DNA from: a virus
Virus record (IMG/VR): IMGVR_UViG_3300013125_000002
Length of the DNA: 64,000 bases
Direction: 5' to 3' (one strand)
Shown piece after piece: positions 5,312 to 21,291 of the stretch. Positions within the stretch are counted from its first letter, which is position 1. Each line of letters begins with the position of its first letter. The notes under the pieces were generated by a model. It was not told the DNA's origin. It saw only the letters and a program-made list of their open reading frames with translations, and ran no database searches. A program made the translations under genes and the position numbers.

Positions 5312-5536
5312 CTAGTTCATCTGAGCAGGAAGCTGAGGAATCTTGAAGCTCACCTTACCGTTGTCATCAAACCAACCATAAGCCAGAAGCTGTCCGTCTT
5401 TGGTCCTGACCTCACCAGCCACGTCAGTTGACGTAGCCTCGACCTTCGCAGCAGTACGAAAAACACACTTTGCAGCGAGGAACAAAGCTTGGTTTCGTGC
5501 ATGCACCTGAGTGCGGTCTACTACTTCGATCTTCAT
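5312..5536 (-). CDS. Hypothetical protein
   Basis: ATG with G-rich RBS, abuts neighbours. Confidence 0.5.
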   Translation of the reverse strand: MKIEVVDRTQVHARNQALFLAAKCVFRTAAKVEATSTDVAGEVRTKDGQLLAYGWFDDNGKVSFKIPQLPAQMN

Positions 5537-5545
5537 GGATACCCC

Positions 5546-5770
5546 CTACTCAGACTGAAGTCTCTGGCTAGACTGATGTCTGATCTCTTTATGGAAGTAC
5601 TTCCCTATCGATTCCGCCGAAAGGAGCAGCGGATAGTGGCACGCCAATCCTGGATAGAGATAAGCAGACCCATTCTTGAACTGGACGATCAGGTCATCAT
5701 CTCGGGTACCGATGGCCAGAATGTGTGACGACTCGACCTCAGACCACTCGTTCGCTTCGAATGGGTTCAT
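5546..5770 (-). CDS. KTSC domain protein
   Basis: VESSHILAIG...LIVQFKNGSAYLY...LLSAESIGKYFHKEIR matches KTSC consensus; likely start ATG 5770. Confidence 0.85.
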   Translation of the reverse strand: MNPFEANEWSEVESSHILAIGTRDDDLIVQFKNGSAYLYPGLACHYPLLLSAESIGKYFHKEIRHQSSQRLQSE

Positions 5771-5996
5771 TCCAGACTCGTTTATTGGTGCAGCTCTTAC
5801 AGAGCTTGGTGAGCTTCTCGCCATCCTTCTGCAGCCCGCAACCAACCTCGACCTCTTTACCACAATCCTCACAGAAGTGGCAATGACTTCTGATCTCAGA
5901 AGCTAGCTCCAGCAGTTCTGCCGAAAGCAAAGGAATGTGATTCTTGATTGCTTCTGAGATAGCTGTGATTTTCTGTGAGATTTCCAAAAGCTTCAT
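5739..5996 (-). CDS. Hypothetical zinc-finger protein
   Basis: CEDCG...LCKSC. Confidence 0.5.
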   Translation of the reverse strand: MKLLEISQKITAISEAIKNHIPLLSAELLELASEIRSHCHFCEDCGKEVEVGCGLQKDGEKLTKLCKSCTNKRVWNEPIRSERVV

Positions 5997-6010
5997 TGGT
6001 CACCATGAGA

Positions 6011-6430
6011 AACCACCAGAAACCAAGAATAGTTTCTGGTGGTTCATCTGGAATTTGGGAAAAGGAAGAGGAAAAATGAGGCATCATCGGCCATGGTGTG
6101 CCTCCCCGTCCATCACAGTTTGAGACCGCTAGGCGACTGGGCACGAGGGGGTGACGTGGGAGTCGCTGATTTCTCAAACTGTGATCTCAGAACCATCAAA
6201 CCATCCTCGGTTGCTGGGATGGTCATGATTCTGAGAGCCGAGAACCCCGCCAGATGATAGTTGCTACCATCCTGGGTTCTCGCCCCCGACACCCCACCAC
6301 GAGGGTGAGGATCGTGAGCAGTAGCGGCGGCTGGTACTGCCCCAGCAATCACTCGGTTATGAACCGAGCAGGTCTCTTTCTCCATCCCACCGCAACAGTT
6401 GTCACCAAAGATGATCTTCAATGACAACTC
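6011..6430 (-). ncRNA. Unclassified large structured ncRNA (~420 nt) ending in a terminator-like hairpin
   Basis: Intergenic; about nine helices including perfect 14-bp stem 6112-6125/6172-6185 and long-range pairing 6057-6070/6374-6388. Confidence 0.7.
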
Positions 6431-6459
6431 AAGCACCGTACTCCCCTCTACTCTGAGTG

Positions 6460-6747
6460 TCAACCATCTTTTTGTGAGAGTTGCCGACCGTGAGAGAGCC
6501 CTTCAAGATACCATAGGAAATCACGACGGGGGACTGTCCCCTGACACTTCTTGCACTGATACCGTCGGTCTCGAATGGGCTGGCCAGGGGCAAGAGGTAG
6601 AGGAACAAACTCATGGGGAGCTTGACAGCCACGGAGTCTCTTTCGATTCTCCTCAGCTTCCTTGAAGACTGCTTTGATCCCGTCGAGTGTATCCGACATG
6701 AGATTCCTCCCACTCACCAACCTACCCTCTGATCCCTCCTGTGGCAA
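6460..6747 (-). CDS. Hypothetical protein (CxxC)
   Basis: Gene train; YQCKKCQG. Confidence 0.5.
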   Translation of the reverse strand: MPQEGSEGRLVSGRNLMSDTLDGIKAVFKEAEENRKRLRGCQAPHEFVPLPLAPGQPIRDRRYQCKKCQGTVPRRDFLWYLEGLSHGRQLSQKDG

Positions 6748-6749
6748 CT

Positions 6750-6929
6750 CTACTCCTCGAGATCTCGAGCCTTCAGTGTACCCCGCCCCTCATCGGCTTT
6801 GCAGGTCTGCACCGCCTTGATCACCATCTCACCAACCTTCTTGTTGAGTGCCTCGACGAACTCTGCTGAAGTCCGCAGCTGGGCAACCTTGACCAGCTCC
6901 TTCACCTTGCTGACAACAACCAGAATCAT
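6750..6929 (-). CDS. Bacterial-type histone-fold protein (Bd0055/HBb-like), 59 aa
   Basis: MILVVVSKVKELVKVAQLRTSAEFVEALNKKVGEMVIKAVQTCKADEGRGTLKARDLEE; RxTxxxxD histone motif, AAGGAGAG RBS, own promoter; below ORF-track cutoff. Confidence 0.85.
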   Translation of the reverse strand: MILVVVSKVKELVKVAQLRTSAEFVEALNKKVGEMVIKAVQTCKADEGRGTLKARDLEE

Positions 6930-6957
6930 GGAACTCTCCTTTGTGGGCTCCTACTTT

Positions 6958-6989
6958 TATAATACGAATGAAGGGGCTTTCAGAGACAC
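6958..6989 (-). promoter_or_regulatory. Phage-specific bipartite promoter GTGTC-N16-TTCGTATTATA (copy 1)
   Basis: Same motif and spacing at 4 intergenic sites. Confidence 0.75.
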
Positions 6990-7059
6990 ATCGAGAGGCA
7001 CTTTTTACTGAAGCAACAGAGAGCGTGCGGTACCGCACGTTAAGGGGAGAGTTCTAGAA

Positions 7060-7767
7060 TCAGGCTGTACGTCGATGCAGGTCCAGGAAGAGGTCGGAAG
7101 GTTCGATGGACAGGATGCGTGCTGCCAGACCTTCCACAGCACTCCTACGCTGCTCTGGTGTGTCTCTATCGACATCCCAGGGCATATCAAGAATCGTGAC
7201 CCCCTGCTGACGCAGAACCGCCACCATGTGGTCAATCTCTCGGTCAAGCATCTTGAGGTACTCGAGGTCGATGCCCCTCTCACACTGCCGACCAGTCTGG
7301 TTCTCCATGCGCCTGCTGATACGACGATTGCAGGTTTCAGGATCAACAAGCACCCGCACGCAAACCGTTGGCAAAAGAACCGAAGCAGTCATGGCATGGT
7401 AGATCGACTGATAGGTTGCAAATTCTCGCTCTGACATGAGACCCATCGTCCGCTGTAGCCGTGCGAAGGCAGTGTCCCCGTAATAGCTGCGGTCCAGAAC
7501 AGCACAGCCCTTCATCTGCATCGCATGCCACTGAGCTAGCTGGTGCATCCGAAAGCGCAGACCAAGAAGATGAAGCTGCATGGTGAGAGACCAACGATTT
7601 GGGTCGCTGTAGTAGTCCGCGAGATAGGGGTTTGCTCCCGCCCTCTCATCAGGCTCTTTCAGAGTGAGGGTTGTCGGTCCTAAGGCAGCCCCTAGTTCAG
7701 CAGAGAGTGTTGACTTGCCCGCTCCGATCAAACCTTCTACAGCAATCACTGGCCGGCTGTCTCTCAT
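7060..7767 (-). CDS. Deoxynucleoside kinase (dNK family)
   Basis: IAVEGLIGAGKST P-loop, EP, LDRS, RISRR...R..E, YLKML. Confidence 0.9.
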   Translation of the reverse strand: MRDSRPVIAVEGLIGAGKSTLSAELGAALGPTTLTLKEPDERAGANPYLADYYSDPNRWSLTMQLHLLGLRFRMHQLAQWHAMQMKGCAVLDRSYYGDTAFARLQRTMGLMSEREFATYQSIYHAMTASVLLPTVCVRVLVDPETCNRRISRRMENQTGRQCERGIDLEYLKMLDREIDHMVAVLRQQGVTILDMPWDVDRDTPEQRRSAVEGLAARILSIEPSDLFLDLHRRTA

Positions 7768-12803: not shown

Positions 12804-12811
12804 CCACAAAG

Positions 12812-12885
12812 TGGCAGCAGCTGGTAACGATCCAGCAATCTTTCGGTTATGAGCCGAATGAGGAGACCATCTCCTCCCTGCTGCC
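12812..12885 (-). tRNA. tRNA(CAU), atypical (no U8, T-loop AUCGUUA)
   Basis: UUCGG-CUCAUAA-CCGAA; all four stems pair. Confidence 0.7.
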
Positions 12886-20475: not shown

Positions 20476-21291
20476 CTATCGCTTTCTGTCTTGAAGTGGC
20501 TGACCAGAAGCGATGAAGGCCTCCAGCTCTTCCTGGGTCATCCAGCCATCGATCTGAGTAGTCCGACCAGTGTTCACCCAGAAGTGAAGTGAACCATCCT
20601 TCCGACGGTTGGGAGAGCAACAGAGTGCTGTTGGGTAGTACCTACCGTTGGAGGTCTTTTTGATCGCCTCGTTGATCCGTTTGAGGAGGTCTTTGCCAAG
20701 ATCCTCATCAGCAAACTGCTGATCAACTTCTGCTTCGGTTTCCTTGGCGATCTTCTGTACCGCCAAGAACTTCCGGTAGGCTCGGTTATCGGGTGGTTCG
20801 GAAAAGGGGTTCCAATTGAAGAAAGTCGAAAGAGCATTGCCCCCAAAAACACCACCACAGTGGGCTGCCCCCAACACCTCAAGAAGCTTCTCCTCAGGGG
20901 CACCCACAGCACTGCTAGCCGCCTTCGTCATCGAGGCAACAGGATCGTTTGGGTCCCATTCCAGGACGACATGGGTGATGAGTTTAGCAAGCTTCGCACA
21001 TTCCTTCTTCTGATCTTGCCCTGGGTGGTAATACCCATCAAAGTAGCAAGAACCCGTTCCAAGAACGAGATCACCAACACCAGGGAGGTTGCACCCACCC
21101 TCGCTCTTGTAGATGCTGCACTCATGCGTGTGGAACGCACCAGTGAGATGGTAGGTCCCAACTTGTGAGATCACAGTTTGGAACAATCTCGAGACATGAA
21201 AAAGAAGCTTTGGGACTGGTTCGAATCCATAAGCCCCAGGACGACCATCCTCGTCTAGCTTCTTGGGCTTGGCTTCGTTGGTGAACGTCAT
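20476..21291 (-). CDS. Hypothetical protein
   Basis: 271 aa; AAGGGGAAG RBS. Confidence 0.6.
   Translation of the reverse strand: MTFTNEAKPKKLDEDGRPGAYGFEPVPKLLFHVSRLFQTVISQVGTYHLTGAFHTHECSIYKSEGGCNLPGVGDLVLGTGSCYFDGYYHPGQDQKKECAKLAKLITHVVLEWDPNDPVASMTKAASSAVGAPEEKLLEVLGAAHCGGVFGGNALSTFFNWNPFSEPPDNRAYRKFLAVQKIAKETEAEVDQQFADEDLGKDLLKRINEAIKKTSNGRYYPTALCCSPNRRKDGSLHFWVNTGRTTQIDGWMTQEELEAFIASGQPLQDRKR

What the first reader, a model, noticed from the sequence alone, without database searches (positions are those of the whole stretch)
6011..6430. Unclassified ~420-nt highly structured RNA with a Met-anticodon-like hairpin
Seen: the gap between two genes is filled by helices. These include a perfect 14-bp stem (6112-6125/6172-6185), TCTCAGAA/TTCTGAGA, CGAGAACCC/GGGTTCTCG with a GCAA tetraloop, and a long-range closing helix (6057-6070/6374-6388). 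There is also a C-rich loop that could pseudoknot with G-runs, a hairpin CUCGG-UUCAUAA-CCGAG (6352-6368) identical in form to a CAU anticodon arm, and a 13-bp terminal hairpin. I see no RNase P, tmRNA or group I/II hallmarks. Candidate new large phage ncRNA.
Basis: partly seen in the sequence, partly recalled or inferred. Interest (0 to 1): 0.72.

Follow-up and report, generated by a model that had tools for sequence, protein, structure and literature searches.

The report
Hairpin-rich phage RNA with tRNA relic
A 460-base gap between two small genes of an uncultured giant phage is a string of very stable RNA hairpins led by a worn-down copy of the phage's own methionine-type tRNA. It matches no known RNA family and has no relatives in any collection searched, so its role is untested.

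Summary
The helices are real. The gap 5997-6459 folds far better than shuffles (minus strand z -6.8; three-hairpin core z -7.5) and ranks first of 532 stretches of the window for GC-corrected fold energy. Rfam at two thresholds and ARAGORN find no known family. The 116-codon ORF inside it has no relative among 5.8 billion protein clusters and folds poorly, so coding is unlikely.

New here: the "Met-anticodon hairpin" belongs to a 72-nt tRNA-like element (6394-6323, minus strand). It is a diverged copy of the phage's own tRNA(CAU) at 12885-12811: 49/72 identical, and three stem pairs changed on both sides while keeping pairing. The D arm is lost and the T loop is non-canonical.

The rest is a modular run of local hairpins, not one closed 420-nt fold.

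No homologue turned up in phage, IMG/VR, metagenome or genome collections, by sequence or by covariance model. Covariation across genomes therefore cannot be tested.

Best guess (inferred): the tRNA relic is a cutting handle for tRNA-processing enzymes, releasing a hairpin-rich RNA. A tRNA decoy and a functionless fossil remain live rivals.

The parts
6958..6989 (-). Phage-specific promoter-like motif GTGTC-N16-TTCGTATTATA. It is the only promoter candidate upstream of the region.
Evidence: Four copies in the window against 0.04 expected. The sigma-70 scan finds none in 5400-7300.
6460..6699 (-). Upstream gene: 79-aa zinc-ribbon-like protein (C-x3-H...C-x2-C, WYxxGLxHGR), full length.
   Evidence: GGAGG-type ribosome-binding site and ATG at 6699. 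382 relatives, mostly 70-95 aa, aligned end to end. phrog_9844, function unknown.
6397..6429 (-). HpA: 15-bp hairpin with a 3-nt loop and three G-U pairs. It ends 2 nt before the tRNA-like element.
   Evidence: Mean pair probability 0.97. On the plus strand it breaks into 8 + 4 bp.
6323..6394 (-). tRNA-like element (TLS), a diverged paralogue of tRNA(CAU) 12885-12811. Acceptor, anticodon and T stems are kept. The D arm is lost and the T loop is GGCAGUA.
   Evidence: 49/72 identical. Alignment score 71 against 25 +/- 4.6 for shuffles (maximum 47 of 2000); the next-best tRNA scores 50. Pair counts. No tRNA CM hit at E<=10. ARAGORN calls it only in mitochondrial mode.
6351..6369 (-). Anticodon arm of the TLS: stem CUCGG/CCGAG, loop UUCAUAA (U33, CAU, A37).
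   Evidence: Pair probability 0.99. The loop matches that of tRNA 12811 at 6 of 7 positions.
6283..6322 (-). G-rich/C-rich linker with a weak hairpin. It carries one of two CCCUCGUG copies.
   Evidence: Fold z only -1.5. It pairs differently in the full-length fold. Repeat D4.
6239..6282 (-). HpC: 9-bp perfect outer stem and 9-bp inner stem (two G-U), CAA loop.
   Evidence: Pair probabilities 0.96-0.97.
6186..6235 (-). HpD: 11 + 8 bp hairpin with a 2-nt bulge. Its 3' end abuts HpE, and three unpaired nucleotides (6238-6236) separate its 5' end from HpC. It shares the 13-mer AACC(C/G)AGGAUGGU with HpC.
   Evidence: Pair probabilities 0.97-0.98. Repeat D2.
6112..6185 (-). HpE: 14-bp perfect stem, internal loops, 6-bp and 4-bp stems, C-rich 9-nt loop.
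   Evidence: Pair probabilities 0.97-0.99. Inverted repeat I1.
6044..6094 (-). 16-codon mini-ORF MADDASFFLFLFPNSR behind GGAGG (6-nt spacing). It lies in a weak hairpin and a pyrimidine tract (6076-6057), and its stop abuts the end hairpin.
   Evidence: The local fold is not better than shuffles (z -0.4). Coding status is unknown.
6010..6045 (-). HpT: 16-bp end hairpin (13 bp perfect), UUCU loop, tail CUCAUGG without a U-run. It ends 13 nt before the next start codon.
   Evidence: Pair probability 0.98. The terminator scan does not flag it.
5739..5996 (-). Downstream gene: 85-aa protein with CxxC...CxxC motifs.
   Evidence: No relative found among longer proteins of the collection, nor in IMG/VR viral contigs; proteins of similar length in the protein collection were not searched.

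Best explanation
What it is (fairly secure): the 463-nt gap 5997-6459 is non-coding and acts as RNA read from the minus strand. It is most probably the tail of the transcript that starts at the phage promoter motif 6989-6958. That transcript carries the histone-like gene and the 79-aa zinc-ribbon gene.

The gap is a modular string, not one closed fold. In order:
- hairpin HpA;
- a 72-nt tRNA-like element that is a diverged copy of the phage's own tRNA(CAU), with the D arm lost, the T loop non-canonical, and the acceptor, anticodon and T stems kept;
- a G/C-rich linker;
- three long hairpins in a row (HpD abuts HpE; 3 nt separate HpC from HpD);
- a weak hairpin with a 16-codon mini-ORF;
- a 16-bp end hairpin.

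How it works (inferred, not shown): the tRNA-like element serves as a handle for the host's tRNA end-processing enzymes. RNase P would cut at about 6394/6393, which has the usual U(-1)/G(+1) context. RNase Z or an equivalent would cut at about 6323/6322. Flanking tRNAs must do the same for the Y RNAs in this phage's tRNA array.

Cutting would leave the upstream mRNA ending in the protective hairpin HpA. It would also release a ~310-nt hairpin-rich RNA (6322-6010). That RNA either accumulates as a stable RNA or forms the protected 5' end of the downstream message.
For: - Structure far above chance and the strongest in the window.
- Strand: all genes and the tRNA array lie on the minus strand. 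The tRNA-like element has that orientation. The minus strand is 25 kcal/mol more stable. The six shared hairpins hold 10 G-U pairs on the minus strand against 1 on the plus.
- Non-coding: the ORF has only own-contig copies among 5.8 billion clusters, no Pfam or PHROG match and pLDDT 44.5.
- tRNA origin: 68% identity to tRNA 12811, about 10 sd above shuffles.
- Stems kept under divergence: two acceptor pairs and one anticodon-stem pair changed on both sides, one more changed to G-U, and the T stem is identical. In contrast, 4-5 of 7 D-stem pairs are broken.
- The cloverleaf costs only 1.6 kcal/mol above the MFE.
- HpA ends 2 nt before the element.
- The only promoter-like site is upstream of the two-gene unit.
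- Relatives of the 79-aa gene sit directly beside true tRNAs in other phages, for example 36 nt before a tRNA in L114.
Against: - A single sequence: no homologue anywhere, so no covariation across genomes.
- No expression or end-mapping data.
- Loss of the D arm and of the UUC T loop removes the tRNA elbow that RNase P normally reads.
- A processing handle does not need an anticodon arm, yet that arm is the best-kept part. This fits a mimic or decoy better.
- The changes that keep pairing could date from when the copy was still a working tRNA.
- The strand asymmetry of G-U pairs is moderate (p about 0.006-0.05).
- The end hairpin lacks a U-run, so the 3' end of the RNA is undefined.
Confidence: 0.35

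Rival explanations
1. tRNA decoy or mimic. The processed or unprocessed RNA is a stable trans-acting RNA. Its tRNA-like element presents a tRNA-Met/Ile2-type anticodon arm and acceptor helix to a protein that reads tRNA(CAU). Candidates are a host anticodon nuclease or toxin, a modification enzyme or a synthetase. The hairpin body gives nuclease resistance.
For: - The anticodon stem-loop is the most conserved and most certain part (probability 0.99, loop 6/7 identical, one stem pair changed on both sides).
- Losing the elbow and breaking pair 1-72 would disable decoding while keeping recognition surfaces.
- The phage already invests in tRNA mimicry, with Ro60 plus six Y RNAs, some with tRNA modules (earlier notes).
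- Phage tRNAs are known to counter tRNA-cleaving defences (PMC10264068, PMC11555353).
Against: No partner protein is identified. There is no homologue and no expression data. The Ro-binding motifs of this phage's Y RNAs are absent. Nothing ties the hairpins functionally to the element.
Confidence: 0.2
2. Fossil plus ordinary punctuation. The tRNA-like element is a dead tRNA gene left beside a gene family that often travels in tRNA arrays. The hairpins are unrelated transcript-stabilising or RNase III/terminator-type stem-loops. There is no integrated RNA machine.
For: - The element fails the tRNA CM and bacterial ARAGORN, with D arm, T loop and pair 1-72 degraded.
- Relatives of the 79-aa gene lie next to true tRNAs.
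- Only local hairpins are robust.
- There is no conservation anywhere.
Against: - Decay is not uniform: 16 of 17 pairs in three stems survive 32% divergence, while one arm is wiped out.
- A 463-nt non-coding gap that is the most structured stretch in 64 kb of a compact phage genome is hard to see as junk.
- HpD and HpE abut exactly.
Confidence: 0.25
3. Regulatory leader of the downstream genes. The Phe/Leu-rich mini-ORF (6094-6044), whose stop abuts the end hairpin, acts with that hairpin as an attenuator or translational switch for the gene starting at 5996.
For: GGAGG with 6-nt spacing, six consecutive Phe/Leu codons, and the stop codon at the foot of a 16-bp hairpin that lies 13 nt before the next start codon. 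A leader-peptide attenuator was proposed elsewhere in this genome.
Against: The hairpin has no U-run. No alternative anti-terminator pairing was found by eye. The local fold around the ORF is not better than shuffles. It explains only the last ~100 nt.
Confidence: 0.07
4. DNA-level element, such as palindromic protein-binding sites, a replication origin or a packaging site.
For: Several arms are perfect inverted repeats. A 15-nt copy of the HpE arm occurs once more at 21166-21180.
Against: Stems are extended by G-U pairs mainly on one strand (10 against 1). There are no iterons and no AT-rich tract; GC is 0.54, like the flanks. The tRNA-derived element points to RNA.
Confidence: 0.04
5. Protein-coding gene: ORF 6113-6463 (116 aa from TTG, 107 aa from GTG as gene callers annotate it).
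For: An open frame of 116 codons. Its codon-usage score of 0.056 lies between real genes (0.305 +/- 0.125) and off-frames (-0.20), and is close to the 0.10-0.15 of two neighbouring real genes.
Against: Only own-contig copies in the protein collection. No Pfam or PHROG family. AlphaFold pLDDT 44.5. The frame runs through a tRNA-derived element and about 100 highly probable base pairs.
Confidence: 0.04
6. Self-splicing intron or mobile insertion that split one gene into the 79-aa and 85-aa ORFs.
For: A 12/14 direct repeat (5970-5983 and 6469-6482) flanks the gap and encodes xSQK in both ORFs.
Against: - The 79-aa protein is a complete member of a 70-95-aa family whose members end where it ends.
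- No longer protein matches the 85-aa ORF.
- No group I or II signal even at E<=10.
- A repeat of that quality is expected about 0.7 times by chance in 650 nt (own estimate).
Confidence: 0.02

Closest known systems
Bacterial and phage Y RNAs with tRNA-like modules (YrlA; PMC4201824), including the six Y RNAs of this same phage
   Same: A phage-borne non-coding RNA that embeds a tRNA-derived module. It occurs in a genome that also encodes Ro60 and a large tRNA set, and flanking tRNA processing is the presumed route of release.
   Different: There is no Ro-binding closing stem, and the GCCG.../(G/A)UUA(U/C)C motifs shared by this phage's Y RNAs are absent. YrlA keeps the D/T elbow and lacks the anticodon arm, whereas here the elbow is lost and the anticodon arm kept. 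The RNA is 3-4 times longer and lies 4 kb outside the array.
tRNA-like processing handles: mascRNA at the MALAT1 3' end and the tRNA-like/hairpin TMER transcripts of murid herpesvirus 68 (own knowledge, not checked in the library)
   Same: A non-chargeable tRNA-like element inside a longer transcript, followed (TMER) or preceded (MALAT1) by stable structures. RNase P/Z cuts define the ends. This is the proposed working analogy.
   Different: Those are eukaryotic or animal-virus systems. No cleavage has been shown here, and no such module is described for phages to my knowledge.
Phage T4 stable RNAs 'species 1 and 2' (RNA C and D) of the tRNA cluster (own knowledge)
   Same: Phage-encoded stable RNAs of unknown function associated with tRNA genes, with partial tRNA-like features, matured by tRNA-processing enzymes.
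   Different: The T4 RNAs are about 120-140 nt and lie inside the tRNA cluster. No sequence or CM relationship was testable here.
tmRNA (standard and two-piece)
   Same: A tRNA-like part plus a short ORF plus several helices, of similar overall length. It would make sense in a phage with 45 tRNAs.
   Different: ARAGORN finds none even at relaxed settings. The best Rfam tmRNA hit is 6.8 bits. The tRNA-like part is contiguous with a full anticodon arm, has no G3:U70, and the mini-ORF does not end in a hydrophobic Ala-rich tag.
Large ornate RNAs often found in phages near tRNAs: GOLLD, ROOL; also OLE, HEARO, raiA (PMC12286853, PMC5737381)
   Same: A length of several hundred nt, many helices, and a phage and tRNA-rich context.
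   Different: No hit to any of these covariance models at E<=10. Here the long, nearly perfect local hairpins dominate rather than an ornate multi-junction fold.

Membership tests
tRNA (RF00005) | Covariance-model score at or above the gathering threshold (29 bits) | tested here: not met
   No tRNA hit in 6300-6420 even at E<=10. The paralogue 12812-12885 scores 48 bits.
tRNA (RF00005) | Four-arm cloverleaf with a D stem and a UUC-type T loop | tested here: not met
   Acceptor, anticodon and T stems pair. 4-5 of 7 D-stem pairs are broken, the T loop is GGCAGUA, and pair 1-72 is U.U. ARAGORN calls it only in mitochondrial mode.
tRNA-derived paralogue of the phage's tRNA(CAU) 12811-12885 | Full-length sequence similarity above chance, and closer to that tRNA than to the other tRNAs | tested here: met
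   49/72 identical. Score 71 against shuffles 25 +/- 4.6 (maximum 47 of 2000) and against 9272 background windows (maximum 49). The next-best tRNA scores 50.
tmRNA | Detection by ARAGORN or the Rfam tmRNA models; split tRNA-like domain with G3:U70; tag ORF | tested here: not met
   (none, also with relaxed scores); alpha_tmRNA 6.8 bits against 50 needed. The acceptor has no G3:U70.
Y RNA / YrlA | Closing Ro60-binding stem; the motifs shared by this phage's six Y RNAs (5' GCCGN, (G/A)UUA(U/C)C, 3' YUYGC) | tested here: not met
   There is no (G/A)TTA(T/C)C and no YTYGC/CTCGC in 5997-6470, and only one GCCGA. All seven motif copies lie in the array. The motif definition comes from an earlier unverified note.
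GOLLD, ROOL, OLE, HEARO, raiA, RNase P RNA, 6S, group I and II introns (Rfam 15) | Covariance-model match | tested here: not met
   Nothing at gathering thresholds in the window except tRNAs. In 5700-6800 at E<=10 there are only chance-level hits of 17 bits or less.
Group I/II intron or insertion in a split gene | Flanking ORFs are halves of one protein | tested here: not met
   The upstream ORF is a complete family member. No longer relative exists for the downstream ORF.
Intrinsic terminator (end hairpin 6045-6010) | GC-rich stem followed by a U-run | tested here: not met
   The stem is present, but the tail is CUCAUGG. The scan does not flag it.
Conserved structured RNA family of its own | Homologues in other genomes with covarying pairs | tested here: inconclusive
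   No homologue by blastn, nhmmer or CM R1 in the phage database, about 1 Mb of related loci or 5 whole related viral records.
RNase P / RNase Z substrate (proposed mechanism) | Cleavage at the 5' and 3' ends of the tRNA-like element | not testable with these tools
   Only the context can be read: U(-1)/G(+1), and a coaxial acceptor plus T helix of 11-12 bp.

The most novel reading that the evidence does not exclude
The element is a new kind of phage RNA. A disabled copy of a tRNA(CAU) is fused to a nuclease-resistant hairpin body and made in quantity. It would soak up a host factor that attacks or reads Met/Ile2-type tRNAs, such as an anticodon nuclease or toxin. Equally new for phages would be a tRNA-punctuation device that cuts a phage mRNA and caps both products with hairpins.
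Probability: 0.12. Interest if true: 0.75.

Novelty: new variant of a known kind. Interest (0 to 1): 0.42.

Why it matters
If the RNA is real and processed as proposed, it would show that phages reuse worn-out tRNA copies as signals or decoys outside their tRNA arrays. That would add to the picture of tRNA mimicry in a phage that already carries Ro60, Y RNAs and 45 tRNAs. It would also give a concrete, small object to test: 72 nt plus three hairpins. For now its value is that of a well-characterised orphan. The structure signal is strong and the tRNA ancestry is clear, but function and even expression are unshown.

Tried and rejected
- Known families: Rfam at gathering and at E<=10, and ARAGORN in tRNA, tmRNA and relaxed modes, gave nothing.
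- Homologues by sequence:
  - the phage database gave no match;
  - 22 + 80 loci anchored on the deoxynucleoside kinase 600 nt upstream showed that only the kinase is shared, with no synteny;
  - five whole related viral records gave only chance hits.
- Exact patterns: the 17-nt anticodon hairpin gave two chance hits. A 23-base tRNA-like pattern gave none in viral or genome contigs.
- Homologues through neighbours: the 85-aa and 79-aa proteins have no close relatives in the viral or metagenome collections.
- Nineteen distant loci of the 79-aa family showed no conserved structured gap downstream and no CM hit.
- A covariance model of the three-hairpin core found only itself.
- Coding: see the rival explanation. 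Codon usage alone was ambiguous.
- Split gene or intron: rejected.
- Y RNA membership: rejected on motifs.
- HpC/HpD as clean duplicates with changes on both sides of pairs: two incompatible alignments exist, so I make no such claim.
- GAUGG enrichment (6 copies) is not convincing after multiple testing.
- My first count of '10 G-U against 0' was too generous. The corrected count is 10 against 1-3.
The 77%-identity relatives seen in the protein search could therefore not be fetched.
- Earlier notes of this scan hold no look-alike stretch in other genomes.

Full report
**Context.** The window is part of an uncultured large phage. All genes in the first 20 kb run on the minus strand, and 45 tRNA genes lie at 10.5-18.4 kb. 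Earlier notes of this scan describe Ro60 and six Y RNAs in that array, a histone-like gene at 6750-6929, and a phage promoter motif.

I confirmed the motif GTGTC-N16-TTCGTATTATA: four copies against 0.04 expected, one of them at 6989-6958. A terminator-like hairpin at 7039-7024 follows the deoxynucleoside kinase gene. The local unit therefore reads: promoter, histone-like gene, a 79-aa gene (6699-6460, with a good ribosome-binding site), then the 463-nt gap 6459-5997, then an 85-aa gene starting at 5996. No whole genome is held for the window.

**Observation.**
- The minus strand of 6005-6465 folds at -205.1 kcal/mol against -160.7 +/- 6.5 for shuffles (z -6.8). The plus strand folds at -179.3 (z -4.9).
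- The three-hairpin core 6112-6282 has z -7.5.
- In a scan of the whole window, 6001-6240 ranks first of 532 stretches on both strands for GC-corrected fold energy, ahead of the tRNA array.
- Only 17 long inverted repeats exist in the 64 kb, and two are here.

With base-pair probabilities, the certain parts (above 0.9) are local:
- HpA 6429-6397;
- the CAU hairpin 6369-6351;
- HpC 6282-6239;
- HpD 6235-6186;
- HpE 6185-6112;
- the end hairpin 6045-6010.

The long-range closing helix is not robust. It disappears when the ends move by five bases, has about 0.1 probability on the minus strand, and costs 0.7 kcal/mol when forced. The 'GCAA tetraloop' is really a CAA triloop on an inner 9-bp stem.

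**Not a known family.** Rfam finds only tRNAs in the window at gathering thresholds. At E<=10 in 5700-6800 it finds nothing but chance hits of 17 bits or less. ARAGORN finds no tmRNA, even at relaxed scores.

**Probably not coding.** The 116-codon ORF 6113-6463 matches only copies from this same contig among 5.8 billion protein clusters. It has no Pfam or PHROG family, and its AlphaFold pLDDT is 44.5. Codon usage alone is ambiguous: 0.056 against 0.305 +/- 0.125 for genes and -0.20 off-frame. I leave about 4% for coding.

**The main new result.** A self-comparison of the window showed that 6342-6367 resembles the anticodon region of the tRNA(CAU) at 12811-12885. Aligned in full, 6394-6323 (minus) matches that tRNA over its whole length: 49 of 72 identical, score 71. 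Shuffles give 25 +/- 4.6 (maximum 47 of 2000), 9272 background windows reach at most 49, and the next-best tRNA scores 50.

On the cloverleaf of the tRNA:
- Acceptor stem: two pairs changed on both sides (A-U to G-C, twice), one C-G to U-G change, and one broken pair (1-72, U.U).
- Anticodon stem: one pair changed on both sides (U-A to C-G).
- T stem: identical.
- D stem: loses 4-5 of its 7 pairs.
- T loop: GGCAGUA instead of a UUC-type loop.

The tRNA model does not see the element even at E<=10, whereas its paralogue scores 48 bits. ARAGORN calls it only in its mitochondrial mode. Forcing the three-arm fold costs 1.6 kcal/mol.

The 'Met-anticodon-like hairpin' is thus a real anticodon arm of a tRNA-derived, D-armless element. 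The uneven decay argues that most of the divergence happened under selection for those stems: three stems are intact after 32% divergence, while one arm and its tertiary partner loop are gone. It cannot show that selection still acts.

**Strand.** Gene and tRNA orientation, the orientation of the tRNA-like element, the 25 kcal/mol difference, and the G-U pairs all favour minus-strand RNA. The six shared hairpins contain 10 G-U pairs on the minus strand. On the plus strand those hairpins break up and hold one, or three if a weak hairpin is counted. This is moderate evidence, not decisive.

**Relatives.** None were found.
- The phage database gave no match.
- 102 loci around kinase relatives at 30-71% identity share only the kinase.
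- Five whole related viral records gave nothing by BLAST or by a covariance model of the core.
- Exact patterns gave only chance hits or none.

**A false lead.** A 12/14 direct repeat flanks the gap and encodes xSQK in both neighbours, which suggested a split gene. The 79-aa protein, however, is a complete member of a family of 70-95-aa proteins with 382 hits (conserved C-x3-H, C-x2-C, WYxxGLxHGR) that end where it ends. The 85-aa protein has no longer relative. I reject the intron or insertion reading.

A useful by-product came from this. In 3 of 19 IMG/VR loci the family gene sits inside or beside a tRNA array on the same strand, once 36 nt upstream of a tRNA. A tRNA-derived element just downstream of this gene therefore has a natural origin. 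No conserved structured gap follows the gene elsewhere.

**Mechanism.** The shown facts are the anatomy, the tRNA ancestry, the strand preference and the lack of any known family. Everything about function is inference.
- My preferred reading (0.35): the tRNA relic is a handle for RNase P and RNase Z. The upstream mRNA would end in HpA, and a hairpin-rich RNA would be released or would protect the 5' end of the downstream message.
- Decoy or mimic rival (0.20): the best-kept part is the anticodon arm, which such a handle does not need. This is the strongest point for this reading.
- Fossil rival (0.25): a dead tRNA plus ordinary stem-loops cannot be excluded for a singleton.
- Minor rivals: an attenuator built on the Phe/Leu-rich mini-ORF (0.07), a DNA-level element (0.04), coding (0.04) and an intron (0.02).

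**Comparison and verdict.** The element works most like tRNA-like processing handles or tRNA-module RNAs (Y RNAs, T4 stable RNAs). It is a member of none of them: the tRNA, tmRNA, Y RNA, GOLLD/ROOL and intron criteria were all tested and not met. I class it as a new variant of a known kind, namely phage RNAs built around tRNA-derived modules, supported by one sequence only. Interest is moderate. The structure and the tRNA ancestry are solid, but expression, processing and conservation are all open.

Noticed in passing
window 6460-6699 (-); L113 2897-3115, L114 3001-3198, L129 3001-3216: The 79-aa protein belongs to a widespread family of 70-95-aa phage proteins (C-x3-H...C-x2-C, WYxxGLxHGR; 382 hits; phrog_9844, function unknown). 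In 3 of 19 IMG/VR loci the gene sits inside or right beside a tRNA array on the same strand. This hints at a tRNA-related role.
   Followed up: partly
window 6044-6094 (-): A 16-codon mini-ORF, MADDASFFLFLFPNSR, lies behind a GGAGG site. It has six consecutive Phe/Leu codons in a pyrimidine tract, and its stop abuts the 16-bp end hairpin 13 nt before the next gene. It could be a leader peptide or chance.
   Followed up: partly
window 6175-6189 and 21166-21180: The 5' arm of HpE (GAGAUCACAGUUUGA) is perfectly complementary over 15 nt to the mRNA of ORF 20476-21291 (271 aa, no Pfam family), about 37 codons into it. The within-window E-value is about 0.02-0.05, so it may be chance or an antisense target.
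   Followed up: partly
window 12811-12885 (-): The tRNA(CAU) parent copy is itself unusual. It has a 7-bp D stem with a 3-nt loop in the MFE, and a T loop AUCGUUA with positions 54/58 swapped to A/U. The whole-window Rfam pass missed it, but it scores 48 bits when searched alone.
   Followed up: partly
L129 3217-3372: Downstream of the closest IMG/VR relative of the 79-aa gene lies a run of small tandem hairpins (three of ACAACC/GGUUGU, plus two others), z -4.7. It shows no sequence or CM similarity to the window's hairpins.
   Followed up: partly
window 6200-6212 / 6266-6278 and 6142-6149 / 6298-6305: There are internal repeats inside the RNA. AACC(C/G)AGGAUGGU plays different structural roles in HpC and HpD, and CCCUCGUG occurs in the HpE apex and in the linker. 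Both allow alternative pairings, so a possible switch. The apical loops of HpC and HpD both show AGCAAC.
   Followed up: partly
window 5970-5983 and 6469-6482: A 12/14 direct repeat flanks the gap, in frame in both neighbouring genes (xSQK). It is judged to be chance after the split-gene test failed.
   Followed up: yes
window 7024-7039 (-): A terminator-like hairpin directly follows the deoxynucleoside kinase gene, just upstream of the promoter motif at 6989-6958. Together they delimit a small transcription unit.
   Followed up: no
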